This document shows positions 1 to 64,000 of a stretch of DNA of 64,000 bases, piece after piece. Source of the DNA: an uncultured Chloroflexia bacterium (GTDB lineage: Bacteria; Chloroflexota; Chloroflexia; QHBQ01; JADMIH01). Numbering within the stretch: position 1 is the first letter of the stretch; each line of letters starts with the position of its first letter. Under the pieces are notes generated by a model, which saw only the letters and a list, made by a program, of their open reading frames with translations, searched no databases and was not told the origin of the DNA. The stretch spans positions 864,001 through 928,000 of the forward strand of contig CAWCNY010000003.1 of assembly GCA_963797095.1 (NCBI GenBank). Reading direction: 5' to 3'. The translations under genes and the position numbers were made by a program.

Positions 1-1
1 A

Positions 2-655
2 AGTGCGGGCCGAGCGCCTCGCCGCTATCGAGGCAAAGATACCTTCGAGTGGCTGATCCTGATACACTTCCTCGACATCACGCCCGACAAACTGCCCATG
101 CCACGGGAGCATTTTGCGGCCCCGCATATCTCCGGCACAAAAGGCGGGCATACACTGAACCTGCACCGCTTCGCCCGCGACGGCGTGAAGCTCCTGGGCC
201 ACCTGCGAGGTGCCGACAACAACAAGCTCACATTCGCGCCCGATCTGAAAGAGAACCTGGCGAAATCTGATGGGTTCGAGATGCAGGTTCGCAAAATGGT
301 GGACGAATACATCCAGGCGAACGGCCTCGACTTGCCGCCGGACGAGCTACCTCAACTGCGCGACGGCTACGAGCAACCGATCATCGAAGAGCTTGATCTG
401 GCGGAGGCAGGCATCAGCACCATCATCTGGGCCACCGGCTACACCTTCGACTTCAGCCTGGTGAAGCTCCCCGTCTGCGACGCGGATGGCTTCCCCATAC
501 AGACGAGAGGCGTAACCAACTATGAGGGGCTTTACTTCGTAGGTATGCCCTGGATGCCCTCCCTGAAAACAGGCATCCTGGTGGGCGTTGGCGAATCCGC
601 CCGGCACATCGCCTCCAACATAGTGGAGACCTACGCATACGCGAACAGGCGATAA
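2..655 (+). CDS. Flavin-dependent oxidoreductase/monooxygenase (MSMEG_0569/CzcO-like), 5' truncated by window edge
   Basis: Frame open from position 2 (SAGRAPRRYRGKDTFEWL); 'IIWATGY' and 'GLYFVG' FAD-oxidoreductase motifs. Confidence 0.8.
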   Translation, partial: SAGRAPRRYRGKDTFEWLILIHFLDITPDKLPMPREHFAAPHISGTKGGHTLNLHRFARDGVKLLGHLRGADNNKLTFAPDLKENLAKSDGFEMQVRKMVDEYIQANGLDLPPDELPQLRDGYEQPIIEELDLAEAGISTIIWATGYTFDFSLVKLPVCDADGFPIQTRGVTNYEGLYFVGMPWMPSLKTGILVGVGESARHIASNIVETYAYANRR

Positions 656-686
656 GGCGGGTCACTTCAGCCACGAGGTAACAAAG

Positions 687-1505
687 CTACACAGAATAGA
701 AATACCAGGGGATCCCCAGCAGGGCCTCACCGCCAAGCATCAACCCAAGCCCTATCAGAAACACGCCCAGCGGCACCACCAGCCGCCTGCCCCACGACGC
801 GTTCTTCTCGGCCCACATCACCATCCCAAGCACCAGCATCCCGCCTATGCTACCCGCCACCCCAACGAGCATCAGCAGCATCATGGCCCAGCAGCACCCG
901 ACGCACGCGATCCCCTCGCGCACCCCCAGCAGCAAGGGCCATCTTCGCCACCTTCGCTCGTCCTCCACAGGGGCAAGCGAAGGTGGCGAGCACACACTGT
1001 GTATGGACAGGCGCTTCAGGGGCATGAACTGGTAGATCCCGGCAAGAACCAGCGCCATCGGACCGATCAGGCCACTTGCTTCCAGCGCCAACCCGAACGC
1101 CTGGAGGAGAGCTTGCAGAGCCAGGTGCGCGCCAATGCCGAAGGCCGTCCACACCAATACATAACCACCAAGCAGCAGGAAGATCGATCTCGCACGCGCT
1201 CCGGGGCCAGCTATCGCACCGGAGAATCGCCCCACGAGGGGCAGCACAGTTGGCAGCATCATAGCCACCACCATAAGAGCCCAACCCCCGGCGAAAAACG
1301 CCAGCGCCAACACACCGCTCTCTTGCGTACCCGCCGGACCTGCTACTGACGCGTGCCCTGCGTGGCCCATAGAGTGCCCAAGGGGCGACTGCTCCAGCGC
1401 GAACAACGAGAGCCAAGCCGCTATTATCAACCCGACCAGTACGATCAGCACCGGCCTTTGTGCGATACTATTCAGCTGGATAGCTCTCAATTGCCTCAAT
1501 TGCAT
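687..1505 (-). CDS. DUF2182-type predicted metal-binding integral membrane protein
   Basis: Multiple TM helices, 'W.LMVVAMMLP', 'YQF.PLK', 'CVGCCW' motifs. Confidence 0.8.
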   Translation of the reverse strand: MQLRQLRAIQLNSIAQRPVLIVLVGLIIAAWLSLFALEQSPLGHSMGHAGHASVAGPAGTQESGVLALAFFAGGWALMVVAMMLPTVLPLVGRFSGAIAGPGARARSIFLLLGGYVLVWTAFGIGAHLALQALLQAFGLALEASGLIGPMALVLAGIYQFMPLKRLSIHSVCSPPSLAPVEDERRWRRWPLLLGVREGIACVGCCWAMMLLMLVGVAGSIGGMLVLGMVMWAEKNASWGRRLVVPLGVFLIGLGLMLGGEALLGIPWYFYSV

Positions 1506-1567
1506 GGTACCTGCAACCTTTTCCCTATTATACCCGGGTACCCTGCATGACGGCTACAGCCACTCTC

Positions 1568-2620
1568 TCAGGCCGACGAGCGCGGGATGAAGTGGCAGGC
1601 GATCTTATGCTGCACCGGCTCGGTCTCGTATCCGTTCTCGCTGTGGTCGAGCAAATATTGCACCGCCCATTGGCCCATCTGGTAGTGCGGTAGCTCCATT
1701 GTCGAGAGCGGCGGGTAGAGCTGCGCCGCGATCAGCTCCAGGTTATCGAAGCCGATCACCGCCACGTCATCCGGGATCGACATTCCCAGCTTGCGCAGCG
1801 CATCGTACACGCCCATCGCCGTCAGATCGTTGAAGCAAAAGAGAGCGGTAGGCGGCTCCGCGAGGTGCATAAGCTCCATTGCGCAGCGATACCCGCCGCT
1901 GCTCTGGGTGGTCGCTCCATACTGGATAAGGCGGCTGTCGAATGGCACGTTGTAGGCTGCCAGCGCTCGCTTGTAACCCTCCAGGCGCTCCTGTTGCGCT
2001 GGCATGGGGTCCACATTGTTGATGAAACCGATCCGGCGGTGGCCTTTCTGCAGCAGCACCTCGGTGGCTGTCCTGGCACCCTGCACTTCGTCCGGCACCA
2101 CCGATGGCAGCGAGCGGTCATCCACGTAGCAGTCAAGCAGCACTACCGGTGCCTGAGAGATCGACTGCGGCGGGGTGACGCTGTGATGGAACATTGTCGA
2201 GTAAATGATCCCCTCGACCTGCCGCGCCAGCAGCATCTCGATAGCGTCGCGCTCGATCTTGCTGTTGCGGCCCGTATTGAACAGCAGCACCATCTTATCG
2301 TTGGCCCAGGCCGCATCCTGCGCCCCTTTGACACTCTTCCAGGCAAGGGGAGTCGACACGAGCTCGTCCGAGACAAATCCATCGGAGATGAAGCCGATGG
2401 TGTGAGAGCGCCGAGAAATAAGCCCGCGAGCCATCGCGTTAGGTCGCCAGTTCAGTTCCCTTATGGCTACCCACACGCGATCCTTGGTCTCCTGCGGGAT
2501 GCTGGTGTCCTGCACATCGTTCACGACGAACGACACAGTGGTTGGCGATACACCCGCCAGCCGGGCAACGTCCTGTATGGAAGGCTTCTTCAGCTTTGAG
2601 CGCCCCGGTTTGTCCGACAT
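1568..2620 (-). CDS. LacI-family transcriptional regulator
   Basis: 'SIQDVARLAGVSPTTVSFV' HTH; 'PDDVAVIGFDN', 'PPLST' sugar-binding domain; divergent from sugar ABC operon. Confidence 0.95.
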   Translation of the reverse strand: MSDKPGRSKLKKPSIQDVARLAGVSPTTVSFVVNDVQDTSIPQETKDRVWVAIRELNWRPNAMARGLISRRSHTIGFISDGFVSDELVSTPLAWKSVKGAQDAAWANDKMVLLFNTGRNSKIERDAIEMLLARQVEGIIYSTMFHHSVTPPQSISQAPVVLLDCYVDDRSLPSVVPDEVQGARTATEVLLQKGHRRIGFINNVDPMPAQQERLEGYKRALAAYNVPFDSRLIQYGATTQSSGGYRCAMELMHLAEPPTALFCFNDLTAMGVYDALRKLGMSIPDDVAVIGFDNLELIAAQLYPPLSTMELPHYQMGQWAVQYLLDHSENGYETEPVQHKIACHFIPRSSA

Positions 2621-2716
2621 AACTATGTCTCAGGCGTGTCAGGAGGTCGGCCCGCAGGGCCTTCACGCCCACGCTGGCCTCAATCAATCTCCGTAACTAA
2701 CTGGTTTGAACTCGCT

Positions 2717-2745
2717 AGCATAGCTCTAGCACGCCGCTTTGTCAA
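2717..2745 (-). promoter_or_regulatory. Sigma70-type promoter for the LacI gene
   Basis: Minus strand TTGACA (2745-2740), 17 bp, TATGCT (2722-2717). Confidence 0.7.
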
Positions 2746-2928
2746 GTAGGCTTAAGAGTGTAAATAGGGCTTATGCGTGCTAATTCGCTGCCCCTCGCTA
2801 GTGAAGTGGCCACGCACGAAGAGTTGCCCGCCCGAGCTACAGCTACAGCCCGGCTACGCATGCGAACCTGATCTCGTTGGCCGTTCTGATTTAGCATGCA
2901 TAAGCCCTAATTTACTCCTGATAACCTA

Positions 2929-2972
2929 TTGACAAGACACTCCTCTGGTAGTATCATCCTAAAACGATTTAC
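2929..2972 (+). promoter_or_regulatory. Sigma70-type promoter with overlapping LacI-type operator for the maltodextrin ABC operon
   Basis: TTGACA 2929-2934, 17 bp, TATCAT 2952-2957; CTAAAACGATTTAC (2959-2972) is an imperfect palindrome with a central CG; similar site GCAAAACGCTTAGC at 3373-3386. Confidence 0.7.
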
Positions 2973-3510
2973 CAAACCCATCAGGGTCAACCCGTTGGTT
3001 GCAGGCGCAGTTGGGTAAGAGGGCTCTACCGTACTGCGACTTCCCTTGTTCGTGGTTGCTGAACGTTACCAGGATTGTCGCGTTGTGCCAGGCCATCTGC
3101 GTACCGGCCTATTGACGAGCCTGGTAGCACGATTCCGGCACACTACAGAGAAATAACGGTTGCGGCTGTCGCACACAGCGCACCTCCACTGGCAGCACTT
3201 GCGCATTATCGAATACAATACACGCTACCACGCGCGCGTGGCTCCATGCGGTCACCGTGCGGTTGTGGGCAGCCACCTTTCATAACTCATAGCCTGCCAA
3301 CCACCAACCCGAATATGTGGCCCTAACGCAACCCAAAAGGAGGTGATTCTCGGCGAAGCTCTCAAGCATTCTGCAAAACGCTTAGCCACGCCTGATTTCG
3401 CGATCTGCAACTGAACTATTCGACAGGCCGCCGCCCGGACGCGGCGCATTCATGGGCAAAGTCCGGGCCCAGTATTGTGCAACGTAGTAAGTTGAACAGG
3501 AGGAAAGTCA

Positions 3511-4902
3511 ATGAAGTCTACCAAGTATAGCTGGTTGGTAATCGTGATGATCTTTGCGACGCTCTTGCTGAGCGCCTGCGGCGGCGATGCTACCCCAACC
3601 ACGGGCACGGCAGCAAACCCCACCGATACAGCGGGCTCCGTACAGGCAGCCGCCACGGATACGCCTGCCGCAGCCGCAGTACCGACCGATACGCCCGCTG
3701 CGGCTGCCGCGGGACCGACCGATACGGTCGAACCAACCGCCGTCTCCCTGGGCGATCCGAGTACGGCCAAAACCACAATTACCATCTGGCACTCGTGGGC
3801 CTCTGACTATCTCAGCCCCAAAGAGGCCATTTTCGCCGCATATGTACAGCAGCACCCGGATGTTGCCATCAAGCTGCTCAATGTATCTGACATCAGCACA
3901 AAAGCCCAGAACGCCGTACCCGCTGGCGTCGGCCCCGATATCATCGCCTGGGTAGACGACCAGATCGGCTCGAACGCGCTGGTAGGCGTGATCGATCCGC
4001 TCGACGGCATAGATGGCATCGACCAGGATTACTTGAAAGCCAACTATCCGGAAGTGGCCGTCAACGCCATGACCTATGACGGCAAGATTTACGGCCTGCC
4101 CGAAACGATGGAGGCGATCACCTTCATCTACAACAAGAAGCTGATCTCCGAAGACCAGCTGCCCAAGACCACCACCGAGCTGAAGCAGAAGATGGCCGAT
4201 TACAACAACGCGAACGCCGGTATGTACTTCGCCGTGTGGGATCCCAACAACGCCTACTCCAACGCTCCCTGGTTCTACGGCGCTGGCGGTCAGTATGTGG
4301 ACGACCAGGGTAACGCTCACCTCAATTCTTCCCAGGCCCTCGCTACGGCCCAGTTCATACGCAGCCTGCAAGGCCTTATGCCCAAGGATATCGACGGCAA
4401 CACCGCGGACGCTCTGTTCAACGATGGCAAGGCAGCTATTGAGCTGACAGGCCCATGGCGCATCGCCGACCTGAAGAGCTCCGGCATGGACTTTGGGCTG
4501 GCTAAGATACCGATGGTTGACTTCGGTGACACCGGCCCGGCCCGCCCGTTCGTCGGCGTCAAGTGCCTCATGCTTGCCCACGGCAGCAAGAACGCCGACG
4601 TGGCCGCCGACATCATGAAGTTCTACACCTCCAGCGAGGAGTTGGAGACTATGGCCAAGGGCACAGGCGAGGTGCCGGCCGCCACCCAAGCCGCCAATGA
4701 CCTCAGCAGCAATCCGGTGGTGGCAGGTTTCAACGCCCAGGCAGTAGACGGCGTGCCCCTGCCCAACACCCCCTTCATGGGTGCCCTCTGGGACCCGGCG
4801 GCCAAGGCCTACTCGGCCCTCTGGTCCGGCACGGACGATCCCCAGACTATCATGACAGCATCTCAGCAAGCAGCGACCTCCGCTCTTGCGAAGATGAAGT
4901 AG
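3511..4902 (+). CDS. Maltodextrin/oligosaccharide ABC transporter substrate-binding lipoprotein (MalE-like)
   Basis: AGGAGG RBS, lipobox LSAC, Thr/Pro/Ala linker, 'GPDI', 'YGLP', 'IYNKKL', 'TGPW' motifs. Confidence 0.9.
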   Translation: MKSTKYSWLVIVMIFATLLLSACGGDATPTTGTAANPTDTAGSVQAAATDTPAAAAVPTDTPAAAAAGPTDTVEPTAVSLGDPSTAKTTITIWHSWASDYLSPKEAIFAAYVQQHPDVAIKLLNVSDISTKAQNAVPAGVGPDIIAWVDDQIGSNALVGVIDPLDGIDGIDQDYLKANYPEVAVNAMTYDGKIYGLPETMEAITFIYNKKLISEDQLPKTTTELKQKMADYNNANAGMYFAVWDPNNAYSNAPWFYGAGGQYVDDQGNAHLNSSQALATAQFIRSLQGLMPKDIDGNTADALFNDGKAAIELTGPWRIADLKSSGMDFGLAKIPMVDFGDTGPARPFVGVKCLMLAHGSKNADVAADIMKFYTSSEELETMAKGTGEVPAATQAANDLSSNPVVAGFNAQAVDGVPLPNTPFMGALWDPAAKAYSALWSGTDDPQTIMTASQQAATSALAKMK

Positions 4903-4912
4903 GTTGGTTATC

Positions 4913-4945
4913 GAAGGCAAGGATGCTGAACGCATCCTTGCCTTC
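4913..4945 (+). terminator. Intra-operon stem-loop after the SBP gene
   Basis: GAAGGCAAGGATGC-TGAAC-GCATCCTTGCCTTC, perfect 14-bp stem. Confidence 0.75.
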
Positions 4946-4989
4946 CCTCTCATTCACATCACCGACTGTCCAATTTCGGAGGTAATGTT

Positions 4990-6009
4990 ATGGCACGTGG
5001 CACTCCTGTTGTCGCTGCGGCGGTCGTAGCGCAAACGCAAGGCGTTAACCGCGAGAGGCGTAGGCTCTATACTATCTCCGCGGCCTACATCGGCCCTGCT
5101 ATGCTCGGGATCTTTATTTTCAGTGTCATCCCGATCCTCTACACCCTCTTCACCTCGTTCACCAACCGCAACACCTTCCATTTCCCGGCGGCCCCCGATT
5201 TATTCGGCCCCCCCAAGACTGGGGCTTACACATTTATTGGCCTACAAAACTATGCCACCCTTTTCTGGGACTCCACCACCAGCACCTTCAACACCGATAT
5301 TTTCTCGGTGCTGGCCAACACCGTCCTGTACGCCGTGGTGTGCGTGGGGCTCTTCTTCGCCGTTGGGCTTGGCCTGGCGCTCCTCCTGAGCAGCCCCTAT
5401 GTTAAGCTCACCAGCCTCTTCCGCACGCTGATCATCGTGCCCTGGGCCGCGCCCGCGGTGCTCACCGCCCCCATCTGGAGGTTCTTTTTCAACAGCAACT
5501 TCGGCCCTATCGACCAGATTTTGCGCTCGATAGGCGTCGCCAACCCCCCTAACTGGCTGAGCGATCCCATATGGGCCTGGATCGGCGTTGTGCTCGTGAA
5601 CCTCTGGCTGAGCTACCCCTTCTTCATGTTCGTCATCATGGGCGCCCTCACCACTGTGCCCGCCGACCTCTATGAAGCGGCTCGCATTGATGGCGCGGGC
5701 TGGTGGACCCAACTCTTCCGGATCACGCTGCCGATGATTCGTCCGGCGGTGGTCCCCGTTATCATTCTCAGCCTGATAACGACCTTCCAAATGTTCAACA
5801 CAGTGTGGATCATCACTGCCGGAGGACCGTTCACGGCCATAGGCAAACCCGGCACCACGGAGTTCGTAATGCTCTATTCGTACCATTACGGCATTCAGCA
5901 GAATAACTTCGGCCTGATGAGCGCCTTCGCCGTGGTCCTGTTCATCCTACTATTTGCGATTACTATGTTGAACCTGCGCCTGACCAGTGCAAACAAAGGA
6001 GTGTCATAG
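4990..6009 (+). CDS. Carbohydrate ABC transporter permease (MalF-like)
   Basis: EAA loop 'LYEAARIDGA'; TM helices. Confidence 0.92.
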   Translation: MARGTPVVAAAVVAQTQGVNRERRRLYTISAAYIGPAMLGIFIFSVIPILYTLFTSFTNRNTFHFPAAPDLFGPPKTGAYTFIGLQNYATLFWDSTTSTFNTDIFSVLANTVLYAVVCVGLFFAVGLGLALLLSSPYVKLTSLFRTLIIVPWAAPAVLTAPIWRFFFNSNFGPIDQILRSIGVANPPNWLSDPIWAWIGVVLVNLWLSYPFFMFVIMGALTTVPADLYEAARIDGAGWWTQLFRITLPMIRPAVVPVIILSLITTFQMFNTVWIITAGGPFTAIGKPGTTEFVMLYSYHYGIQQNNFGLMSAFAVVLFILLFAITMLNLRLTSANKGVS

Positions 6010-6010
6010 C

Positions 6011-6937
6011 ATGAGCAGCATCGAATCCACGCAAGCAGCAGCCAGGCCCACACCTACCCATTTAGCCAGCGTGCAAGCACAGGCTGATGCGCTACGGCGC
6101 AAGCAGCGCCAGCAGTTCGTCTGGAAAAGCATCCTGGCGCACATCGCCGTGGTGATCTTCCTGATCTTTGCGATCTTTCCGATCTACTTCCTTGTCACGG
6201 CTGCCTTCCGCCCCGGCCAGGGGTTGTACAGCACCAACCTTGAGCTGATCCCAAGCACCGTCACCCTCGACAACTTCGACTACATGCTCAACCACACTGC
6301 CATGCTCACCTGGCTGAAGAACAGCGTTATCGTGGCCAGCGCTACCACCGTGCTGAGCGTCTGCCTCGCCACCCCGGCCGCCTACGCCTTCTCGCGCTGG
6401 AACTTCCCCGGTCGGGGCGCGATCCTGAGCGTCATGCTTGCCCTACAGGCCTTCCCCGCGATCCTCGCCCTGATCGCCATCTTCGTTATCTTCAAAGAGT
6501 TCCACATGCTCGATACCCTGTGGGGGCTGGTGATCGCCTACGCCTCAGGAGGTCTCGTCTTCGCGATCTGGAACACCAAAGGCTACTTCGACACTATCCC
6601 AGTCGAGTTGGAGGAATCGGCCCGCGTGGATGGCGCGACCGCCACGCAAACCTTCCTGCGGGTTATCCTGCCTCTGGCCCGCCCCGTGATCGCCGTCACC
6701 GCCCTCCTCGGTTTCATGGCCGGGTGGGGCGAGTACATCACCGCTCAGACCGTGCTCTTCAACGAGGACAACTACACCTCGATGGTCGGCCTGATCGGCC
6801 TGCAAACGGACTACAGCAAACCGTGGGGCTGGTTTGCGGTTGGCGCGATTTTTGCTATGGTGCCTGTGATGGCCGTCTTCATGGCGCTCCAGAAGAACCT
6901 GGTTGGAGGGCTAACAGCGGGCGGCGTAAAAGGCTAA
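6011..6937 (+). CDS. Carbohydrate ABC transporter permease (MalG-like)
   Basis: 'LEESARVDGA', C-terminal 'GGLTAGGVKG'; start taken at ATG 6011. Confidence 0.92.
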   Translation: MSSIESTQAAARPTPTHLASVQAQADALRRKQRQQFVWKSILAHIAVVIFLIFAIFPIYFLVTAAFRPGQGLYSTNLELIPSTVTLDNFDYMLNHTAMLTWLKNSVIVASATTVLSVCLATPAAYAFSRWNFPGRGAILSVMLALQAFPAILALIAIFVIFKEFHMLDTLWGLVIAYASGGLVFAIWNTKGYFDTIPVELEESARVDGATATQTFLRVILPLARPVIAVTALLGFMAGWGEYITAQTVLFNEDNYTSMVGLIGLQTDYSKPWGWFAVGAIFAMVPVMAVFMALQKNLVGGLTAGGVKG

Positions 6938-6959
6938 ACCCAGGCCCAAAATCGTAGTT

Positions 6960-6984
6960 GTAGGGGCGAGGCATGCCTCGCCCT
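6960..6984 (+). repeat. GTAG-family REP-like palindrome
   Basis: GTAG followed by GGGCGAGGCA-TGCCTCGCCC inverted repeat in an intergenic gap. Confidence 0.55.
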
Positions 6985-7053
6985 TTGCATGATCACCTGC
7001 TTTGAAATAAGCACCAACCCACAGCAGCAGACCCGGATAACCAGAGAGCATAA

Positions 7054-8544
7054 GTGAAGAACACCTCATTCCCCCCACGGCGCGGGCCGATCTCTATAAT
7101 TCTATTGCTAATGGCGCTGTTGCTCGCCATGTTGCTCGCCGCGTGCGATAGCTCCACCGCCACGCCCACTCTCGTTCCTGCGCCTCCCACCGCCACCTTA
7201 CCGCCCGTCGCGACGGTCCGACCATCCCCCACTTCCCCACCCGAGTTTGACCTGTTCCCAGGCGCTACGCCCACCGCCCCACCGGATAAAGCGGTCGCGC
7301 CACTGTGGGCGCGTGACGCCGTGCTCTACCAGATTTTCGTGCGCAACTTCACGCCCGAAGGCACCCTGGCGGCGGCCCAGAAGCGACTGCCCGACCTGAA
7401 AGATATGGGCATCAACCTTATATACCTGATGCCGATCCAGCCCACGGGCGAGGTGAATCGCAAAGGCAGCCTGGGCAGCCCTTACAGTATCGCCGACTAC
7501 TACGCCATCGACCCGGCCCAGGGCACCGAGGCCGACCTGAAAGCCTTCGTTGACGCCGCACACGGCCTGGGCATGAAAGTGATCATGGACCTGGTCGCCA
7601 ACCACACCGCCTGGGACAGCGTGCTGGCTAAAGAGCACCCCGACTGGTTCAAGCACGACGATGCGGGCAATTTCGTGTCGCCACAACCCGATTGGACCGA
7701 CGTGATCCAGATCGACCACAGCAAGCCTGAGGTGCTTCAATACTTCATCGACATGACCACCCACTACGTGCAGGCCGAGGGCATCGATGGCTTCCGCTGC
7801 GACTACAGCACGGGGGTTCCCCTCGAATTCTGGGAGGCATGGCGGGCCGCCCTCAAGAGGGTCAACCCCGATCTCTTCCTTCTCTCGGAGAACGACGACG
7901 CGTCCCTTACGAAGGCGTTTGACGCCACCTACGACCAGGGTCTCTATAAGGATGTCGTGCCTGCGGTGCTGGGCAACAACCCCCACCGCCTGATGATCGA
8001 CGCTGCCGCCAATTATGCCTCCAGCGGGCCGTACCTGCTGCAAACCCGCTTCTATGAAAACCACGACCACGACCGGGTGGCCGTCCCCTTCGAGCAGATG
8101 CCAATCGAGGCCCTGGAGGCCGCGAGCACCTACCTGCTGACCACCGATGGCATCCCCTTTATCGAAAACGGGCAGGAGGTTGGCATCACCCACACCATTT
8201 CCCTCTTCGATCCCGACCCTATCCAGTGGCAGCTTGGCAACCCCGACCTGCGCGAGCACTTCAAGAGCATCCTCGCCATCCGCAACGCCAACCCCGCCCT
8301 CCAACACGGCGACATAGTGGACGTTGGCACGATCGTGCCAGGTGTGGCTGCTTTCGTGCGCCGCACCGCCGACCAGCAGGTGCTGGTGGTGCTCAGCTTT
8401 GCCAAGGCCGACGCCCACGCGACGCTCGACCCCTCGCTGGCCCGGCACAAAGGCAAAGACCTCGTAACAGGAGATACGGTCGATCTGAGCGCCGGTCTCG
8501 ATATGACCCCCTGGTCATGGCGCATTATCGAGCTTCTTAAGTAA
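7054..8544 (+). CDS. GH13 alpha-amylase-family lipoprotein
   Basis: Lipobox LAAC; GH13 regions 'DLVANH', 'GFRCD', 'LLSE', 'YENHD'. Confidence 0.9.
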   Translation: MKNTSFPPRRGPISIILLLMALLLAMLLAACDSSTATPTLVPAPPTATLPPVATVRPSPTSPPEFDLFPGATPTAPPDKAVAPLWARDAVLYQIFVRNFTPEGTLAAAQKRLPDLKDMGINLIYLMPIQPTGEVNRKGSLGSPYSIADYYAIDPAQGTEADLKAFVDAAHGLGMKVIMDLVANHTAWDSVLAKEHPDWFKHDDAGNFVSPQPDWTDVIQIDHSKPEVLQYFIDMTTHYVQAEGIDGFRCDYSTGVPLEFWEAWRAALKRVNPDLFLLSENDDASLTKAFDATYDQGLYKDVVPAVLGNNPHRLMIDAAANYASSGPYLLQTRFYENHDHDRVAVPFEQMPIEALEAASTYLLTTDGIPFIENGQEVGITHTISLFDPDPIQWQLGNPDLREHFKSILAIRNANPALQHGDIVDVGTIVPGVAAFVRRTADQQVLVVLSFAKADAHATLDPSLARHKGKDLVTGDTVDLSAGLDMTPWSWRIIELLK

Positions 8545-8589
8545 CATTCAGCTATTCAGCCTGCCCACCACAAACCAGGAGCGCCGCCA

Positions 8590-52334: not shown

Positions 52335-52373
52335 ACTACCTTTACGCGCAGACGCAGCAGGGACGACACAGCT

Positions 52374-55142: not shown

Positions 55143-55153
55143 AGTGCGACTCC

Positions 55154-57088
55154 TTACTTTAGGCGTCCGCTGCCTGGGGGGTGGAGAGATGAGTCGTAGA
55201 TGTAGGGGACGTTGGATTCAAGTGGGAGGTCGAGCTGGCCGTTGTAGAGGCGAACGCGGATGCCGTCTCCCGATAGATAGGTGAACATGGAGGGTCCGAA
55301 GCTCTCGTTGCCATCGCTGAGATGATCGGCAGCCCCGGCTGCGATTGTCGCGCTGTAGATCGTCTTCGGACGCTCTCTCTGGGTGCCGAAACGGGCGACC
55401 GGGAAGGAAAAGACCGAGGTAGTGGGCTGGCCGGTGCAGCAGAGGAAGGTGCTGAAGAGCAATTGGCCGCCGGTGATGGTGGCGGAGTTGAGGCTCGTAT
55501 GGTAGAAGTCCCAGTCTACGATGAGGTCGGTAATGGTGGGTGGGGTACTGGGGACAAGGGGAACGAATCTTAGCTCGGCATTGAGGATGTGGTTGAGATT
55601 GTCGTCTCCGAAGTAATCCTCGCGGGCCAGCAGCAGGGGTGCTCCATCAACCCCTTGAAAGACGGACCATATAAGGGGATTGCCGCTTGGCACGTCCACG
55701 GCGGCAAGGGTGGCATCGGCACCGGAAGGATCGATCAGGCGCAAGGTGTAGTGGTCTATGGAGCGCTCGGCCACGACTAGGTCGCCTGCATAGCGCCCGT
55801 TGTAGAGGAAGGCGGCGGTAAGCCAGAAGAAGATGGAGAGGTCGTTGGTTGTGCGGGTAGTTGTTTGGGTGATCGTTCGGGGTGGGGAGGTGTTGTCGAG
55901 AGTGATGAGGATGACAGCTTGCTTCTCGGTGCGGTCGTCGAGGGGAGTAAAGGTGCTGAGGAGAGCGTGGCGTCCATCGGGGCTGAACTGCGCTCCCATA
56001 AAACTGCCTCCGGAGATCGCATAGAGTGGGAGGCGGTCGTTGCTGCCTGCGTTCCCCAGGTAGAGCGTGGTGGCGGTGCTGCTTATGACGCCGCCGAGTA
56101 CATCCTCGCCGGACCATGAGGCAATGAGATAGCGGTTGCTGTTGGGGTCGAGGTCCATGATCACTGTTTTGTCTTTGGAGCCGTTGAGTTGGACCGTGGC
56201 GATCTGTGGGCTCTTGTAGCTCTGGTAGGTGACGGTGGTATCCTGGAGGGCTGAGAGGCTGCGGATGGGGGCTCGATTGCTGAGATAGCCCTCGGCGTAG
56301 CTTATCGCCCACACGCCATCGCTGCCCCACAGGAAGTTATCGTAGCTGTATGGGTCGATGGAGATGGCGGCTTGTTGCGAGAGATGGGACAGGTTGACGG
56401 CCATCAGGCGACGCCCCATCAACTGTGGGGAGCCTCGGAACGAGCCTGTGGGGGTGGGGGTCGGCAGGACGACCGAGCGCGAGTCGGGGACGTCATAGAG
56501 AAGCCAGTCGCCTGTGCCTGTGCCCTGCACTCTGCTGGAGGGGTCGCTGTTCGGAAGCAAGGCCCAGCCGCCATCGCCAAAGTGGTAGAGGCCGGGCGGG
56601 GCGGCATCCTGGCGGAGGACCACGCTGCCGGTCAACGTGCCGCGATATATCTGGCCTGTGGCCTCCTCCTCGATCAGGGCGGAATCTCTGTAGGTTGGCT
56701 GTATATAGCGCACCTGACGGATGGTATTGAGGCAAGAGAGCCAGTTGCCGGCATCCTGGTAAGCGAGGGCCGTCTTGTAGAGGGTGTCACGCTGGGCTAT
56801 GGCGGTAGCCGCTTCCTTAGCTCGCGAATCGGCGTCGAGATAGCCGGAAGCCGAGGAGTAGTGAGACAGGGCGGAATCCCAGTCCTGGCTGGCAGCAGAT
56901 TCCGAGCCTGCCTGGTAGTCGCTCTGCTGGCGAACCTGGCCGAGCCACTGCCAGCCGGCGAAACCGAGCACGCCGAGGAGCACCAGCAGGCCAAGCGCGA
57001 CCTCCCAGGCCCGCCGCCCGCCTCCGGGGGAAGGCGGCTCAGGGTCGAGGTCTTCGATGGTTGAGATGGGGCCGTCCGAGTAGGCCAT
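55154..57088 (-). CDS. Membrane-anchored hypothetical protein (TM, TPR-like helices, beta-rich domain)
   Basis: AGGAG-like context and long ORF; N-terminal TM, 'Y..G..A....DWD.AL..Y' helical repeats, 'FSPDGR'. Confidence 0.65.
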   Translation of the reverse strand: MAYSDGPISTIEDLDPEPPSPGGGRRAWEVALGLLVLLGVLGFAGWQWLGQVRQQSDYQAGSESAASQDWDSALSHYSSASGYLDADSRAKEAATAIAQRDTLYKTALAYQDAGNWLSCLNTIRQVRYIQPTYRDSALIEEEATGQIYRGTLTGSVVLRQDAAPPGLYHFGDGGWALLPNSDPSSRVQGTGTGDWLLYDVPDSRSVVLPTPTPTGSFRGSPQLMGRRLMAVNLSHLSQQAAISIDPYSYDNFLWGSDGVWAISYAEGYLSNRAPIRSLSALQDTTVTYQSYKSPQIATVQLNGSKDKTVIMDLDPNSNRYLIASWSGEDVLGGVISSTATTLYLGNAGSNDRLPLYAISGGSFMGAQFSPDGRHALLSTFTPLDDRTEKQAVILITLDNTSPPRTITQTTTRTTNDLSIFFWLTAAFLYNGRYAGDLVVAERSIDHYTLRLIDPSGADATLAAVDVPSGNPLIWSVFQGVDGAPLLLAREDYFGDDNLNHILNAELRFVPLVPSTPPTITDLIVDWDFYHTSLNSATITGGQLLFSTFLCCTGQPTTSVFSFPVARFGTQRERPKTIYSATIAAGAADHLSDGNESFGPSMFTYLSGDGIRVRLYNGQLDLPLESNVPYIYDSSLHPPGSGRLK

Positions 57089-57500
57089 TCAGGAGCACCT
57101 GGGTCCGGGTTCGCACCGCCAGTACGGTGGGTGCTTTGTCCGGTGGAGTTATCGAGCCTGGGGAGGAGCGTGTTGGTGGGGAGGTTACCGGGGAGGTTAC
57201 AGGGGTTGCAAAGGTAGGTTACATCATGCCCAGGGGTCGCGTCAACTGAATCGTGCTGCAGGGCGCGGCCAATGATACGGTGGTGATGATGCAAGAGGTC
57301 GGGAAAGGGGGATCTACCGGCAAATTTACCCATTTGTTACCGGCGTTTACCAGCGCCTCCACTTTGGCGCGCTAGCATTATGATCAGGACGCGGGCGGCA
57401 AGGCAGGATGCCCGGTAGATGCTATACCGTTATTTGCGGTTCGCCGACCCTTCTGATCAACGTATTGATCAAAATGAACAACGAAGTTCAGCATTACCTC

Positions 57501-57557
57501 TTGACAATAGCAAGCAAAAGTTGTTTACTACAAGGTAAGAGGCTGGGAGCGCTCCCA
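57501..57557 (+). promoter_or_regulatory. Promoter and perfect CelR/CebR-type operator TGGGAGCGCTCCCA (57544-57557)
   Basis: TTGACA at 57501; 14-bp palindrome identical to the actinobacterial CelR/CebR box, just upstream of a LacI gene. Confidence 0.85.
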
Positions 57558-57569
57558 ATGGAGGCATAG

Positions 57570-58568
57570 ATGCCTATAACCCTCGAGGACATTGGCCGTA
57601 TGAGCGGAGTATCACGCTCCACGGTCTCGCGTGTCATAAACGAGGATCCCAATGTCAGTGAGAAAACTCGCAGCAGGGTGCAGGACGTTATTCGAAGCGT
57701 CAACTACCACCCGAATCTTGCGGCACGGGGGCTGGCGGCTGGCCGGACTAAAGTGGTCGGCCTGGTCATCCCACGCGGGGTAACGGCTCTCTTCTCAGAT
57801 CCTTATTTCCCGCTGGTTATACAGGGGGTGGCTTCGGCGTGCGCACCGCTCGACTTTTCGGTAATGCTGTGGCTGTCGGAGCCTGAGCACGAGCGCAAGG
57901 CTATCGGCCAGATCCTCCACAACGGATTGCTCGAAGGCGTGATCATAACCGCAATGCTGATCGATGATCCGCTGATTCAAAGCCTTTCAGAGAGCAAAAG
58001 GCCATTCATTACAATTGGCCGCCACCCCAACGACGAGACGCACAGCTATGTGGACGTCGATAATCGGGCAGGCGCGTACGAAGCGGTGTCGCATATCGTG
58101 CGCACGGGACACCGCAGGGTGGCGGTGATCAACGGCCCGGAAAACACAGCCCACAGTTGGGAGCGCTACCACGGCTATCAGAAAGCGCTGCGCGACCGTG
58201 GCTTGCCGCTGGTGCCTGCGTTGATTGCGGCGGGCGATTTCTCGGAGGCGGGTGGCTACCTGGCGGCGAAGCGCCTTCTTGTGGAAAAGCCGGACGCGGT
58301 GTTTGCTTGCTCAGATGCGATGGCATTTGGCTGCATGCGCGCCATACGGGAAGCTGGCCTGCGTATTCCGGAGGATGTGGCAGTGGTTGGTTTTGACGAT
58401 ATTCCCACCGCGGCCAACAGCAAACCGCCGCTCACCACCGTGAGGCAGCCTATACAGCGCATAGGTAGCCTCGCCGCTGAAATGCTAATCGAAATGATCG
58501 AACACCCAGACCCGCAACCTCGGCGCGTAGTATTGCCTACCGAACTGATTGTTCGCTCTTCTTGTTAA
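57570..58568 (+). CDS. LacI-family regulator (CelR/CebR-like)
   Basis: 'TLEDIGRMSGVSRSTVSRVIN', 'LFSDPYF', 'VVGFDD', 'PPLTTVRQP'. Confidence 0.93.
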   Translation: MPITLEDIGRMSGVSRSTVSRVINEDPNVSEKTRSRVQDVIRSVNYHPNLAARGLAAGRTKVVGLVIPRGVTALFSDPYFPLVIQGVASACAPLDFSVMLWLSEPEHERKAIGQILHNGLLEGVIITAMLIDDPLIQSLSESKRPFITIGRHPNDETHSYVDVDNRAGAYEAVSHIVRTGHRRVAVINGPENTAHSWERYHGYQKALRDRGLPLVPALIAAGDFSEAGGYLAAKRLLVEKPDAVFACSDAMAFGCMRAIREAGLRIPEDVAVVGFDDIPTAANSKPPLTTVRQPIQRIGSLAAEMLIEMIEHPDPQPRRVVLPTELIVRSSC

Positions 58569-58689
58569 GCCCGTTCTATGTTTGGAAGGAGGTGATGAAG
58601 GATGCAAAAGAAGGTGCATGACAACTGCAAGCAGAAGTCTTGTAGTTGGTTTGCACAGATTGGCCGTTAGATCACCAAGGAGGAAAAGA

Positions 58690-60519
58690 ATGCGTAAGTC
58701 AAAATTAATAACATTGGTCGCGGTCCTAACGATCATGACCATGGTTTTGAGCTCTTGCGGCGAGGGAGCCAGTACAGCGACGCCCGTTCCCCCTGCCGCC
58801 ACGGATACCACGGCTCCGGCTCAGGCCACCGAGGCACCCCAGGCTACTGAAGCCCCCCAGGCCACCGAGGCCGCTGCACCCGATCAGCTTCCACGCAACG
58901 AGACTCTGTATGTGGGTGGCTTCCAGTGGCAGCCGCCAGCCACCTTCAACATATTGAACAACAACCCGGACTGGCCGGCGCAGGGCGGTTTCATGGAACT
59001 CTATGAAGCCCTGTTTGCTTACAACCAGTTGTCCGGCAACCTCGACCCGCTGCTGGCTAAGAGCCTCACGACTTCTGCCGATGGCGCTACCATGGACATC
59101 ACTTTGCAGGATGGCACCATGTGGCAGGACGGCCAGCCGCTAACCACCGATGATGTGATTTACACCTACGAGCTCGCCAAGTCGCAGTCGGACGTCAACT
59201 ACAGCACGCTGTTCAACTACATCAACAGCATCACCGCCACCGGCGACCGCACCCTCGAAATCAAGCTCAATACGGATGCGCTCAACCCCGGCTTCGTGAA
59301 GAACTTCCTGACCACAATCAGGATCCTGCCCAAGCATATCTGGCAGGCACGCGAAGCGAGCGGCAAGCTATCCGGAGTGGTTGACACGTCGCCGGTAGGC
59401 TCCGGGCCTTATAAGGTGCTCGACTTCTCGCCGCAGCGCGTGGCCCTCGTGCGCGATGACAATTACTGGGGCAAGACCGTTTTCGGTGGCCTCCCCGCGC
59501 CCAAGTACATCGTGCACCCTATCTTCAAGAGCAATGACGACGGTAACCTGGCCTTCCAGAACGGCTCCGTAGATGTAATGCAGCAGTTCACCCCTCAGAT
59601 CTGGAAGATGTGGGAAGATGCCGGCGCCCCCGTGGGCACCTGGTTTGACGCCCCGCCGTACTACGTGGCAGGCTCCATCCCGATGCTGATCATCAATACC
59701 ACCAAGAAGGGCCTCGACAACCCGCTGGTGCGACGCGCTCTCGCCTACTCGATCAACTATCCTCTTATCGCCGAGACCGCTATGTCCCAGTACTCGGTGC
59801 CGGCCAACTCCAGCTTGATTATCCCCGGCGGTGGCGAAGACATGTTCTTCAACGCCGACCAGGTCAAATCGGACGGCTGGACGTACGATCCTGCCAAGGC
59901 CAAGGACATCCTTGAGAACCAACTCAAGGCCATCAAAGGCTCCGATGGCGTGTACACTCTGCCCGACGGCACCCGCCTCGGCCCCTGGAGCGCCCGTACC
60001 CCTCAAGGCTGGACTGACTGGCAGACCGCTATCAACATCGTGGTCCAGAGCGCCAAGGAAGCCGGTTTCGACCTGCAGGAAGATTATCCCGATGCACCTG
60101 TCGTGACCAGCAAGATCCAGTCCGGTGACTTCGACCTCAACCTGTGGTACATCGCAGGCCAGAGTCCTTCCACCCCGTGGCAGCGCTTCCGCGATATGCT
60201 CGACAACCGGGGCGTACCTGGCATAGGCGAGAATGCTTTCTGGGATTACAACCGCTTGTCCGAGCCTGATGCCCTGCCTCTTCTTGACAAGGCGGCTGCG
60301 ACCACCGATCCTGCTGAGGCTAAGACGTACTACGATCAGCTCGATGCCCTCTTCATGAAAGACATCCCGGGCATCCCTCTGATGTACCGCCCGAACGAGT
60401 TCTACGAGTTCAACACAAGCGTCTGGAGCGGCTTCCCGACGGCGAAAGCGCCCAATGGCGGCACGCCGCAGTTCGCGCAGGCCGGAATCGAGTGGCTCTA
60501 CAAGATCACGGCCAAGTAA
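58690..60519 (+). CDS. Family-5 (OppA-type) ABC substrate-binding lipoprotein, probably for cello-/beta-glucan oligosaccharides
   Basis: AAGGAGG RBS before ATG 58690; lipobox LSSC; 'LPRNETLY', 'GSGPY', 'GWTDW'; controlled by a CelR box. Confidence 0.88.
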   Translation: MRKSKLITLVAVLTIMTMVLSSCGEGASTATPVPPAATDTTAPAQATEAPQATEAPQATEAAAPDQLPRNETLYVGGFQWQPPATFNILNNNPDWPAQGGFMELYEALFAYNQLSGNLDPLLAKSLTTSADGATMDITLQDGTMWQDGQPLTTDDVIYTYELAKSQSDVNYSTLFNYINSITATGDRTLEIKLNTDALNPGFVKNFLTTIRILPKHIWQAREASGKLSGVVDTSPVGSGPYKVLDFSPQRVALVRDDNYWGKTVFGGLPAPKYIVHPIFKSNDDGNLAFQNGSVDVMQQFTPQIWKMWEDAGAPVGTWFDAPPYYVAGSIPMLIINTTKKGLDNPLVRRALAYSINYPLIAETAMSQYSVPANSSLIIPGGGEDMFFNADQVKSDGWTYDPAKAKDILENQLKAIKGSDGVYTLPDGTRLGPWSARTPQGWTDWQTAINIVVQSAKEAGFDLQEDYPDAPVVTSKIQSGDFDLNLWYIAGQSPSTPWQRFRDMLDNRGVPGIGENAFWDYNRLSEPDALPLLDKAAATTDPAEAKTYYDQLDALFMKDIPGIPLMYRPNEFYEFNTSVWSGFPTAKAPNGGTPQFAQAGIEWLYKITAK

Positions 60520-62739: not shown

Positions 62740-62746
62740 CGATGGT

Positions 62747-62871
62747 GTCGGTAGTCGGTAGTCGGAGGTCGGAGGTCGGAGGTCGGAGGACGACAACCCA
62801 CAGACAACCAGGAACTTGGAACTTGGAACCAGAAGCTTCCGACTACTGACTACCGACTACTGACTACCGAC
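62747..62871. repeat. Inverted arrays of heptamer repeats (GTCGGTA/GTCGGAG ... GGAACTT ... CCGACTA/CTGACTA)
   Basis: Left array complementary to right array; intergenic between oppC and oppD. Confidence 0.85.
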
Positions 62872-62891
62872 AACTAGAAGGATAAGCCTAG

Positions 62892-63896
62892 ATGAAGATA
62901 AAGAATGTCCGAGCTTATTACGCGGTGGCTCCTGACCCGGATGTCAGGGCAGTAGATGATGTGTCGCTCTCCATTGGCGAGGGGGAGGTGCTCGGCATCG
63001 CGGGGGAGTCGGGGTGCGGCAAATCGACGCTGGCGTCGGTGATCGCGCTGACGGCGCGCCCGCCTCTGTATGTCAAGAGCGGTGAAATGGAGATCGATGG
63101 GGAAATCATTCAATTGACCGATCAGACCAAGGCCCCCGCATACTGGCATGGGATCAAGGTGGCTTTGCTTCCCCAACGCGCTCTCAACTCGCTGAATCCG
63201 ACGGCGCGCGTGCGTGATTTTGTGGTGGATGTGGTGCGCGCCCACGACAACAGCATAAGCCCGAAACAGGCGGTTGAGAGGGCGCGGGAGCGGCTGGAGC
63301 AGCTTTCGCTGCCGCCGAGAGTGCTCGACAGCTATCCCCACCAGTTGAGCGGCGGGATGCGCCAGCGGGTGGTGGCGGTGATTTCCACCCTGCTTGATCC
63401 GAACCTGCTGATCGCGGACGAGCCTACTTCGGCACTGGACGTGTCCTCGCAGAAACAACTGGTGCTGTTGCTGAGGCTGCTTCTGGACCGTGGGTTCATC
63501 AAGCGCGTCGCTTATATCACCCACGACCTGCCGATGTTGAGCAATATCGCCGACAGGATCGCGGTGATGTACGCGGGCAAGCTCGTTGAGATCGGCACCA
63601 CCAAGCAGATGGTCGAAAACCCGCAGCACCCATACACACATGCCTTGATCACGTCCACGTTGGACCCTGAGCCCGAGGTGCGGCACCACAGGCTGGAAGG
63701 GATAGTGGGCGCGCCGCCCGACTTGAGCTTCCCTCCAAGCGGCTGCCGGTTCCACCCGCGATGTCCTCTCGCGATGGACATCTGCTCGGAAGAGGATCCG
63801 CCCATGGTCGGACAGCCCGACCGATTTGCTGTCTGCTGGTGGCTCAAGAAAGAGGCCGGTAGTGGTAATAAGATACTAGAGGAAGCGAATAGATGA
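62892..63896 (+). CDS. OppD/DppD-type ABC ATPase
   Basis: 'GESGCGKST', 'LSGGMRQR', 'IADEPT', 'GCRFHPRCP'. Confidence 0.95.
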   Translation: MKIKNVRAYYAVAPDPDVRAVDDVSLSIGEGEVLGIAGESGCGKSTLASVIALTARPPLYVKSGEMEIDGEIIQLTDQTKAPAYWHGIKVALLPQRALNSLNPTARVRDFVVDVVRAHDNSISPKQAVERARERLEQLSLPPRVLDSYPHQLSGGMRQRVVAVISTLLDPNLLIADEPTSALDVSSQKQLVLLLRLLLDRGFIKRVAYITHDLPMLSNIADRIAVMYAGKLVEIGTTKQMVENPQHPYTHALITSTLDPEPEVRHHRLEGIVGAPPDLSFPPSGCRFHPRCPLAMDICSEEDPPMVGQPDRFAVCWWLKKEAGSGNKILEEANR

Positions 63897-64000
63897 GCGT
63901 ACAACCGACTCCGACGACCAAAGATGGGATCGAGAAGCCAGTAAGCCTGAATGCGAAGCATAACAGCCACAAGGAGGATGCTTCTCAATCCCCGATGCCC
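63893..64000 (+). CDS. Probable start of the second (OppF-type) ATPase, cut by window end
   Basis: ATG overlaps the oppD stop (ATGA) and the frame is open to the end; identity from operon context only. Confidence 0.5.
   Translation, partial: MSVQPTPTTKDGIEKPVSLNAKHNSHKEDASQSPMP

What the first reader, a model, noticed from the sequence alone, without database searches (positions are those of the whole stretch)
1..64000. Apparent GC-skew inversion near the rep gene
Seen (hand counts on a few chosen 60-nt lines only): on the left the + strand is C-rich whatever the gene orientation (721-780, minus gene: C27/G11; 9181-9240, plus gene: C29/G8). On the right it is G-rich (32101-32160, minus gene: G31/C11; 51121-51180, plus gene: G26/C11; 55861-55920, minus gene: G27/C5). 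The SBP genes at 19757 and 58690 are exceptions, probably from codon bias. Established: a C-to-G switch on the + strand marks a bidirectional origin. Inference: this origin has been active long enough to shape composition over tens of kb.
Basis: partly seen in the sequence, partly recalled or inferred. Interest (0 to 1): 0.75.

Follow-up and report, generated by a model that had tools for sequence, protein, structure and literature searches.

The report
Replication origin of Chloroflexia secondary replicon
The DNA switches from C-rich to G-rich around a plasmid-type replication-and-partition gene cluster, which most likely marks the start point of two-way copying of a large extra replicon in a soil-type Chloroflexia bacterium and points to a previously undescribed variant of starter protein that carries its own binding sites inside its gene.

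Summary
The C-to-G switch is real and not a gene-orientation effect (37 of 44 genes agree; both strands; permutation p=0.001). After removing codon-position orientation bias the minimum moves to 31,884, inside the rep-like gene; gene-level support interval about 19.7-33 kb. The gene heads a cassette rep-parA-antirepressor-like-parB with three parS-like palindromes, a conserved antisense promoter/terminator in the rep leader, and a 24-bp repeat array in the rep linker (31,565-31,732) that is constrained at DNA level and periodic in 102 of 102 aligned homologues. Rep has two duplicated DnaD-like winged helices, a linker and a helical C-domain: it works like pSK41 RepA_N but is not a RepA_N, RepC or Rep_3 member. 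No dnaA, tRNA or rRNA in the window; contig 1.15 Mb. Best reading: bidirectional origin of a Chloroflexia megaplasmid/chromid (0.7). Against: two related loci show no switch within 10 kb of rep, a second paralogue probably shares the contig, and whole-contig skew could not be computed.

The parts
1..19325 (.). C-rich arm on + strand (minus strand = inferred leading strand of leftward fork)
   Evidence: cumulative G-C falls to -1075; both gene orientations C-rich on + at 4-fold sites
19326..33999 (.). flat trough; contains the corrected minimum (31,884) and the rival raw minimum (19,325)
34000..58768 (.). G-rich arm on + strand (inferred leading strand of rightward fork)
   Evidence: cumulative rises to +415 at 58,768; both orientations G-rich
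31154..32818 (-). candidate replication initiator, 554 aa: wH1 (about 5-130) and wH2 (about 168-290), 45% identical to each other, disordered linker, 4-helix C-domain (about 470-554)
   Evidence: HTH_36; PHROG replication-initiation/O-like families; DnaD_N in 106 of 120 listed homologues, DnaA_N fusion in 10 of 120; model wH1 to DnaD-NTD Z 9.7, rmsd 4.5, 109 aligned; duplication 48 of 106 identical
31565..31732 (-). 7 x 24-bp repeat array in the rep linker, core RTGACA-N3-RGTATA: candidate iterons / oriV
   Evidence: PWM from L001+L002 alone ranks six array units as the top 6 hits of the whole window and the seventh 10th; Tyr codons TAT 15:TAC 1 in arrays vs 11:57 in the rest of three rep genes, Fisher p=7e-9; 8-residue period best in 102 of 102 linkers, significant in 99
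31526..31540 (-). eighth copy of the motif read in a different frame (DNA-level, not peptide-level, repeat)
   Evidence: PWM rank 9 in window; same frame-shifted copy in L001 (11,228) and L002 (11,216)
32839..32867 (+). sigma70-type promoter (11 of 12, extended -10) firing antisense to the rep leader
   Evidence: hexamers and spacing conserved in L001/L002
32874..32966 (+). candidate ~90-nt counter-transcribed RNA: stem-loop plus intrinsic terminator (32,931-32,961)
   Evidence: terminator; fold z -3.1, 0 of 200 shuffles as good; conserved in 3 of 3 loci but only 1 of 29 pairs covaries
33114..33260 (+). second antisense promoter (33,114-33,143) followed by a conserved ~110-nt non-coding block
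   Evidence: fold z only -1.7
33486..33719 (-). 77-aa Phd/YefM-like DNA-binding protein upstream of rep, no toxin partner; candidate Cop-type repressor
   Evidence: TIGR01552 above cut-off, Pfam PF02604 E 3e-5 below cut-off; conserved in L001/L002
33780..33890 (-). conserved promoter-like block (33,861-33,832) with a short direct repeat; candidate promoter of the orf-rep transcript
29876..30976 (-). ParA with N-terminal HTH_17 (type Ia-like)
   Evidence: best plasmid hit 62.6% on Ca. Chlorohelix chromid NZ_CP128401.1
28884..29816 (-). P22_AR_N / ORF6C antirepressor-like protein; Bro-N, DinD-like or Ant genes sit at the analogous place in related cassettes
27676..28812 (-). ParB (ParB_N + HTH_ParB)
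   Evidence: 54.7% to the Chlorohelix chromid ParB
27628..27645 (.). parS-like perfect palindrome, copy 1 (just past parB)
   Evidence: 3 exact copies in window vs 0.10 expected with up to 3 mismatches; related palindrome with the same TCGCGA core occurs 3 times around the orthologous Chlorohelix parAB
33923..33940 (.). parS-like palindrome, copy 2 (upstream end of cassette; same position in L001, degenerate in L002)
49490..49511 (.). parS-like palindrome, copy 3, 16 kb out on the right arm

Best explanation
The window straddles the origin of a large plasmid-type replicon (megaplasmid or chromid; contig 1.15 Mb) of a Chloroflexia bacterium. The 554-aa Rep binds, through its two winged helices, the 24-bp repeats encoded in the linker of its own gene, oligomerises along them and opens the DNA nearby; its C-terminal helical domain (in some relatives extended by a DnaA domain I) recruits the host helicase/primase. 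Two forks leave in opposite directions, and long-term leading/lagging mutation bias has made the + strand C-rich to the left and G-rich to the right. Rep supply is limited by a ~90-nt antisense RNA in the leader and probably the small Phd-like protein; ParA/ParB with the palindromic parS sites segregate the origin. Shown: the skew, its independence from orientation, the cassette, the repeats and their DNA-level constraint, conservation of the non-coding signals. Inferred: Rep binding, initiation, bidirectionality, RNA expression, replicon status.
For: Orientation-independent switch; corrected minimum 31,884, about 150 bp from the array; ML change point between parA and rep, and simulation gives an estimate in 28.8-33.5 kb in 89% of runs if the truth is 31 kb but 1% if it is 19.7 kb; intergenic side effect 0.024+-0.008 for a 31.65-kb split vs 0.010 for 19.3 kb; equal strength of the far arms (0.114 vs 0.099). 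Origin anatomy. Co-resident paralogues keep 44-69% identity in domains but 11-18% in the array, as expected of incompatibility sites. No dnaA, tRNA, rRNA or DnaA-box excess. Control: in the three closed Ca. Chlorohelix replicons the all-site corrected minimum lies within 1 kb of a single-wH rep-like gene next to parA in 2 of 3 (NZ_CP128402.1 69,820; NZ_CP128403.1 25,070) and 6 kb from a CyRepA1 gene in the third. Precedent for the layout: pSK41 RepA_N (PMC5703833, passages).
Against: Raw minimum is 19.3 kb and the corrected advantage of 31.9 kb is only 35-90 counts, with a coefficient fitted from the same data. Related loci: L001 third-position skew on the rep-sense strand is -0.009 upstream and -0.092+-0.015 downstream (no C-to-G switch; wrong sign downstream), L002 -0.029 and +0.005 (flat), though the window itself is flat 10 kb downstream (+0.015). 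Skew is weak near rep (0.07 within 8 kb, 0.22 beyond 16 kb) and this is not explained by foreign codon composition (Spearman with GC4 0.03). Rep/par cassettes are not one-to-one with origins: a 40% paralogue (P0087) has the same longest-contig length, Chlorohelix replicons carry several cassettes, the closest ParA sits at that chromid's skew maximum without a rep, two wH rep-like genes there are far from the minimum, and for NZ_CP128402.1 the raw (129 kb) and third-position (107 kb) minima miss the rep. The Chlorohelix wH genes are not significant relatives (E 0.02-0.5) and lack a clear 24-nt array. No marked AT-rich unwinding element next to the array (50-59% GC).
Confidence: 0.7

Rival explanations
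1. The compositional switch is really near 19.5 kb (an older origin position or a rearrangement point) and the rep cassette has arrived or taken over more recently, leaving 19.5-31 kb half-ameliorated.
For: Raw and raw third-position minima at 19.3-19.4 kb; 19,664 is within 1 log-likelihood unit of the best point; genes at 19.7-27.5 kb are near zero; IS66 and TA/Uma2 genes lie in the trough.
Against: No origin-like feature at 19.1-19.9 kb, only a convergent intergene with a terminator-like hairpin; parB, ant-like and parA all carry left-arm polarity (-0.08 to -0.13) and rep right-arm polarity (+0.15); simulation gives an estimate at 28.8-33.5 kb in only 1% of runs for a true 19.7-kb switch.
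Confidence: 0.1
2. The V is a junction, not an active origin: an inversion breakpoint, a cointegrate of two replicons (or of a plasmid with the chromosome) or a chimeric assembly, with a silent rep cassette near the joint.
For: Probable second paralogue on the same contig; several cassettes per Chlorohelix replicon; L001 and L002 without a switch; parS-like copies only from 27.6 kb rightwards; IS66 at 24.1-25.6 kb.
Against: The corrected switch falls inside the intact rep gene, not at a cassette edge or the IS; rep, array, antisense signals and parS sites are all intact; both arms have similar gene content and GC.
Confidence: 0.13
3. Gene-by-gene codon preferences (expression level, recent acquisition) happen to line up into a V; no replication signal.
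For: Between-gene scatter is large (random-effect sd about 0.14 against an effect of 0.14); 7 of 44 genes disagree, including two in one operon at 58.7-61.8 kb.
Against: Opposite-strand genes on one side agree on the + strand, which codon preference cannot produce; permutation p=0.001, block shuffles p<=0.005.
Confidence: 0.04
4. The window lies at the chromosomal oriC, unlinked from dnaA, and the cassette is an integrated passenger or prophage remnant.
For: dnaA-type genes are dispersed in Thermomicrobium roseum (PMC2615216, passage); Rep hits phage O-like families and sits beside an antirepressor-like gene.
Against: 3 DnaA-box matches vs 2.0 expected, none clustered; canonical chromosomal parS not enriched (1 vs 1.0); no core genes, tRNA or rRNA; no phage structural or integrase genes; no tblastn match in 50,697 phage records.
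Confidence: 0.03

Closest known systems
RepA_N replicons (pSK41; and the pPR9 hybrid whose N-domain is HTH_36/PF13730), per PMC5703833 passages
   Same: DnaD-like N-terminal winged helix, origin repeats inside the gene encoding a dispensable linker, helical C-domain, ~83-90-nt two-stem antisense RNA in the rep leader
   Different: No PF06970 match; two duplicated wH domains instead of one; 7-8 repeats at a fixed 24-bp period instead of four boxes; Chloroflexia host; linked parA/parB/parS; DnaA_N fusions in some members
Double-wH iteron initiators (Rep_3: pi, RepE, pPS10 RepA)
   Same: two wH domains in tandem (model aligns to 2nra over 192 residues, Z 6.2, rmsd 5.3); regularly spaced direct repeats
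   Different: no Rep_3 Pfam match; the two wH here are a recent-looking duplication (45% identical) of DnaD_N type; repeats lie inside the gene; extra C-domain
repABC replicons of Alphaproteobacteria
   Same: initiator, ParA-with-HTH and ParB in one cassette, origin inside the initiator gene, counter-transcribed RNA, several compatible paralogues per genome, megaplasmid/chromid scale
   Different: order is rep-parA-ant-parB, not repA-repB-repC; initiator is not RepC (RP-C only E 4e-5, below cut-off, in 1 of 6 family members scanned)
Chloroflexota secondary replicons with mirrored GC skew (T. roseum 920-kb megaplasmid, PMC2615216; Ktedonobacteria 1.6-3.5-Mb elements, PMC13289182; Ca. Chlorohelix chromid and plasmids, PMC10972752)
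   Same: V-shaped skew with parA near the minimum; accessory transport/carbohydrate gene content
   Different: no initiator was identified in the passages read (PMC13289182 states that no canonical Rep family and no parB were detected); whether this Rep family occurs there was not shown
Phage lambda-O-like / replisome-organiser proteins
   Same: wH - origin-bearing linker - helical C-domain; PHROG hits
   Different: no phage context; duplicated wH; coupled to ParABS and antisense control

Membership tests
Bidirectional replication origin (skew criterion) | C-to-G switch on both gene orientations | tested here: met
   37 of 44 genes, all four side/strand classes agree; p=0.001
Bidirectional replication origin (skew criterion) | raw cumulative minimum at 31-33 kb | tested here: not met
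   raw minimum 19,325; 31,884 only after orientation correction
Bidirectional replication origin (skew criterion) | global minimum of the whole replicon with a terminus opposite | not testable with these tools
   only 64 kb of a 1,147,721-bp contig is available
RepA_N (pSK41) replicon | RepA_N domain PF06970 | tested here: not met
   no match in Pfam scans of P0001 and five homologues at E<=0.1
RepA_N (pSK41) replicon | N-terminal winged helix structurally like DnaD-NTD | tested here: met
   Z 9.7 to 2vn2 and 8ojj, top of 48,161 chains; Foldseek top hit 2v79, E 0.009
RepA_N (pSK41) replicon | direct repeats (origin) in the DNA encoding the central linker | tested here: met
   (sequence only; binding untested)
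RepA_N (pSK41) replicon | DnaD-like C-terminal domain | tested here: inconclusive
   2i5u Z 6.8, rmsd 2.2, 69 of 77 aligned, tied with unrelated helical bundles; Foldseek nothing
RepA_N (pSK41) replicon | antisense RNA against the rep leader | tested here: inconclusive
   conserved promoter, hairpins and terminator; expression not testable; no Rfam match
Rep_3 / double-wH iteron initiators | Rep_3 Pfam domains | tested here: not met
Rep_3 / double-wH iteron initiators | tandem wH pair arranged as in pi/RepE | tested here: inconclusive
   2nra Z 6.2, rmsd 5.3, 192 aligned
repABC | RepC initiator | tested here: not met
   no RP-C match for P0001; sub-threshold in P0012 only
repABC | gene order repA-repB-repC in one operon (recalled) | tested here: not met
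   order rep, parA, ant-like, parB; loose in L001/L002
ParABS partition system | ParA, HTH-ParB and repeated palindromic parS nearby | tested here: met
   related palindrome three times around orthologous parAB in NZ_CP128401.1; binding untested
Chromosomal oriC | dnaA/dnaN linkage or DnaA-box cluster | tested here: not met
Chromid (as opposed to megaplasmid) | core genes on the replicon; composition matching the chromosome | not testable with these tools
   none in the 64-kb window; rest of genome unavailable
Prophage replication module | phage structural, integrase or helicase-loader genes in context | tested here: not met
   (47 proteins scanned)

The most novel reading that the evidence does not exclude
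This is the founding example of an undescribed, Chloroflexia-wide family of multi-replicon origins: a duplicated DnaD-type winged-helix initiator that reads an invariant-period (24-bp) but sequence-variable iteron array inside its own gene, drives bidirectional replication of Mb-scale chromids, and diversifies into several compatible paralogues per genome (a Chloroflexota counterpart of repABC); single-wH relatives would supply the initiators missing from other Chloroflexota secondary replicons.
Probability: 0.45. Interest if true: 0.72.

Novelty: new variant of a known kind. Interest (0 to 1): 0.55.

Why it matters
A skew inversion at a secondary-replicon origin is ordinary. Its value here is as a pointer: it places an origin on a gene family that databases call 'hypothetical' or 'HTH protein' and gives concrete, testable parts (Rep, 24-bp array, antisense RNA, parS). 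A 2026 study of Ktedonobacteria chromid-like elements reported no canonical initiator (PMC13289182, passage), so how large Chloroflexota secondary replicons start replication is open. If right, the family offers a marker for typing and binning such replicons in metagenomes and a set of compatible origins for vectors in a phylum with few genetic tools. I found no description of it in six library searches; the library lacks most subscription journals, and the bioRxiv RIP-phylogeny supplements (10.1101/2024.09.03.610885) could not be seen and might list members.

Tried and rejected
Raw cumulative skew as the locator: biased by runs of same-strand genes (coding strand is +0.115, -0.07, about -0.09 at codon positions 1-3). 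TA skew: follows gene orientation, not side. Related-locus scan used a single protein and returned only 2 loci with 10-kb flanks, too short to resolve a trough as wide as the window's; they do not show the switch (L002 downstream figures included one mis-stranded gene and one search stopped on it; one search supersedes both). Weak skew near rep due to unameliorated genes: not supported (rho 0.03). Full-length Rep relatives on closed plasmids or phages: none; only 25-38% wH-domain matches on 64 plasmid records, 40 listed, none for the C-domain, none in phages; of two distant hits inspected one is the sole annotated gene of a 2.4-kb plasmid, the other a small HTH gene with no rep context. NCBIfam names nothing for Rep. 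Foldseek gave no match at E<=0.001 for either model. ESM Atlas neighbours are HTH_36/RP-C/DnaD_N/Phage_rep_O clusters at 0.93-0.95 with under 170 shared features: a lead only. Tree of 26 homologues was the quick method only; it shows the three paralogues of one MAG on separate branches, weakly resolved. The 8-residue repeat as a folded protein solenoid: disfavoured (pLDDT<50; synonymous constraint and a frame-shifted copy), but DNA was available for only 3 of 102 members. Named hosts of the unnamed single-wH relatives and the metagenome and viral contig collections stayed unchecked.

Full report
Observation. The five hand counts are exact but are tail lines (percentiles 0.4-2.0 and 96.4-99.3). 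The underlying pattern is nevertheless real: cumulative G-C falls to -1075 at 19,325, stays between about -910 and -1050 until 34 kb, and rises to +415 at 58,768. Shuffling blocks of 0.5-4 kb gives p of 0.0002-0.005. At four-fold degenerate sites, adjusted for codon family, 37 of 44 non-rep genes have the sign expected from a switch at 31.65 kb, in all four side-by-strand classes; shuffling gene values over the fixed gene map never reached the observed fit in 1000 trials.

Where the switch is. Coding strands here are C-rich at third positions, so the run of minus-strand genes at 19.7-24 kb lifts the raw curve. Removing the per-codon-position orientation effect moves the minimum to 31,884 (all sites) and 31,889 (third positions). 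The coefficient is fitted from the same data; with the value fitted under the rival 19.3-kb split the all-site minimum stays at 31,884 but the third-position minimum returns to 19,395, and the margin is 35-90 counts. A gene-level random-effects model is best with the switch between parA and rep (31,065), with 19.7-31 kb inside the 1.92-unit interval and 33.4 kb just outside; simulation shows such an estimate arises in 89% of runs for a true 31-kb switch, 7% for 25.7 kb and 1% for 19.7 kb. Skew strength rises with distance from rep (0.07, 0.09, 0.22 for 0-8, 8-16, >16 kb; rho 0.40) and this is unexplained: it does not track GC at four-fold sites.

What lies there. On the minus strand: a 77-aa Phd-like ORF, a 554-aa wH protein, HTH-ParA, an antirepressor-like gene and ParB. 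The rest of the window is sugar transporters, glycosidases and secreted repeat proteins; no dnaA, tRNA, rRNA or Rfam RNA, no DnaA-box or canonical parS excess (both motifs recalled). The protein is seen on a 1,147,721-bp contig; 155 homologues passed E<=0.001, 120 listed, the named ones Chloroflexia/Chloroflexota; 106 of 120 carry DnaD_N and 10 of 120 a DnaA_N domain. A profile finds 2,997 representatives at E<=0.001, including single-wH forms. The model (mean pLDDT 72; linker <50) has two wH domains, 48 of 106 residues identical to each other, and a four-helix C-domain. wH1 matches DnaD-NTD best (Z 9.7); the C-domain matches a DnaD C-domain (Z 6.8, rmsd 2.2, 69 of 77) but tied with unrelated bundles. 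PHROGs gives replication-initiation and O-like families.

The intragenic array. Codons 363-418 are seven 24-bp units (31,565-31,732) with core RTGACA-N3-RGTATA. A matrix built only from L001 and L002 ranks six of them as the top six hits on both strands of the window. Three facts point to DNA rather than peptide constraint: TAT outnumbers TAC 15:1 in the arrays against 11:57 in the rest of the three rep genes (p=7e-9) and 174:429 in other window genes; an eighth copy follows in a different reading frame in 3 of 3 loci; and an 8-residue period is the best period in 102 of 102 aligned linkers (99 significant) although the peptides differ freely.

Control and partition signals. An 11-of-12 promoter at 32,839-32,867 and a terminator at 32,931-32,961 define a ~90-nt RNA antisense to the rep leader, folding better than 200 of 200 shuffles and conserved in both related loci, with almost no covariation among three sequences. 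A second antisense promoter and conserved block lie at 33,114-33,260. An 18-22-bp perfect palindrome occurs three times (27.6, 33.9, 49.5 kb; 0.10 expected), at the same place in L001; a related palindrome with the same central hexamer occurs three times around the orthologous parAB (62.6% and 54.7% identity) on the Ca. Chlorohelix chromid, which supports a parS role.

Comparative skew. For: in three closed Chlorohelix replicons the all-site corrected minimum lies within 1 kb of a single-wH rep-like gene beside parA in two (69,820 in NZ_CP128402.1, whose cassette order is rep-parA-parB-bro; 25,070 in NZ_CP128403.1) and near a CyRepA1 gene in the third. Against: these genes are only architectural analogues (E 0.02-0.5; no clear 24-nt array); raw and third-position minima of NZ_CP128402.1 fall elsewhere; each large replicon has several cassettes, and the closest ParA sits at the chromid's skew maximum with no rep. 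The only two true orthologous loci with DNA show no switch within 10 kb: L001 is C-rich downstream (-0.092+-0.015), L002 flat. The window too is flat for 10 kb downstream of rep, so L002 is uninformative, but L001 is contrary; it may be a silent or unidirectional copy.

Mechanism. Most likely Rep binds the array in its own gene, the two wH domains reading the two half-motifs about one turn apart (inference), oligomerises as DnaD/RepA_N do, and loads host helicase and primase through the C-domain or fused DnaA domain I; forks run both ways, giving arms of equal strength (0.114 and 0.099). Antisense RNA and the Phd-like protein would set copy number and ParABS would segregate the origin. This follows the pSK41 RepA_N layout (PMC5703833, passages: wH N-domain, origin in the linker-coding DNA, DnaD-like domains, 83-nt antisense RNA) but fails RepA_N, Rep_3 and RepC membership. 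Skew as a proxy for bidirectional replication of chromids is standard (PMC7858055, passages), and mirrored skew is reported for the T. roseum megaplasmid (PMC2615216, passages) and Ktedonobacteria elements, where no canonical Rep was found (PMC13289182, passages). PMC10972752 and PMC6497799 were read as passages only; the RIP-phylogeny preprint (10.1101/2024.09.03.610885, passages) has no occurrence of Chloroflex, HTH_36 or DnaD in its main text, and its supplements were not visible.

Verdict. Observation partly confirmed; interpretation partly supported. The skew inversion is an ordinary origin signature, but it marks what appears to be an undescribed variant of a known initiator design on a Mb-scale Chloroflexia replicon. 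Confidence in an active bidirectional origin at this cassette 0.7; interest 0.55. The whole-contig skew remains the decisive missing computation.

Noticed in passing
window 28837-28897: Tandem 7-nt repeat, about 8-9 copies, between the end of the antirepressor-like gene and the parB start; could be a slippage-prone spacer or regulatory array.
   Followed up: no
window about 31440-31460; L001 11302-11325: The nearly invariant DDS(N/S) linker motif just after the array is encoded by a DNA palindrome, perfect over 24 bp in L001 and degenerate in the window: possibly a second binding site in the origin.
   Followed up: partly
window 33114-33260: Second antisense promoter plus ~110-nt block conserved in L001/L002; possible second small RNA.
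   Followed up: partly
window 54200-55142: Putative esterase gene is frameshifted near its 3' third; the reading continues in another frame. Pseudogene or assembly indel.
   Followed up: partly
window 24147-27494: IS66 transposase, Uma2 nuclease and a Phd/PIN toxin-antitoxin pair sit in the flat trough next to parB; IS66 also flanks par cassettes on the Chlorohelix chromid.
   Followed up: no
window 10847-14062, 43236-45215, 45378-47318: Secreted proteins with HWDG-type repeats ending in SLH or LGFP-like modules; the last two share a near-identical C-terminal part; low GC at four-fold sites (0.57-0.64) and weak skew.
   Followed up: no
NZ_CP128401.1 and NZ_CP128402.1 (L003-L017): Each large Chlorohelix replicon carries two single-wH rep-like genes and 2-3 parAB sets, several with Bro-N or antirepressor genes: apparent cointegrates.
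   Followed up: partly
P0024, P0096 and 8 other listed homologues: Rep relatives with a C-terminal DnaA domain I fusion.
   Followed up: partly
window 58690-61809: Local reversal of skew in the first two genes of a peptide ABC operon while the last two follow the arm.
   Followed up: partly
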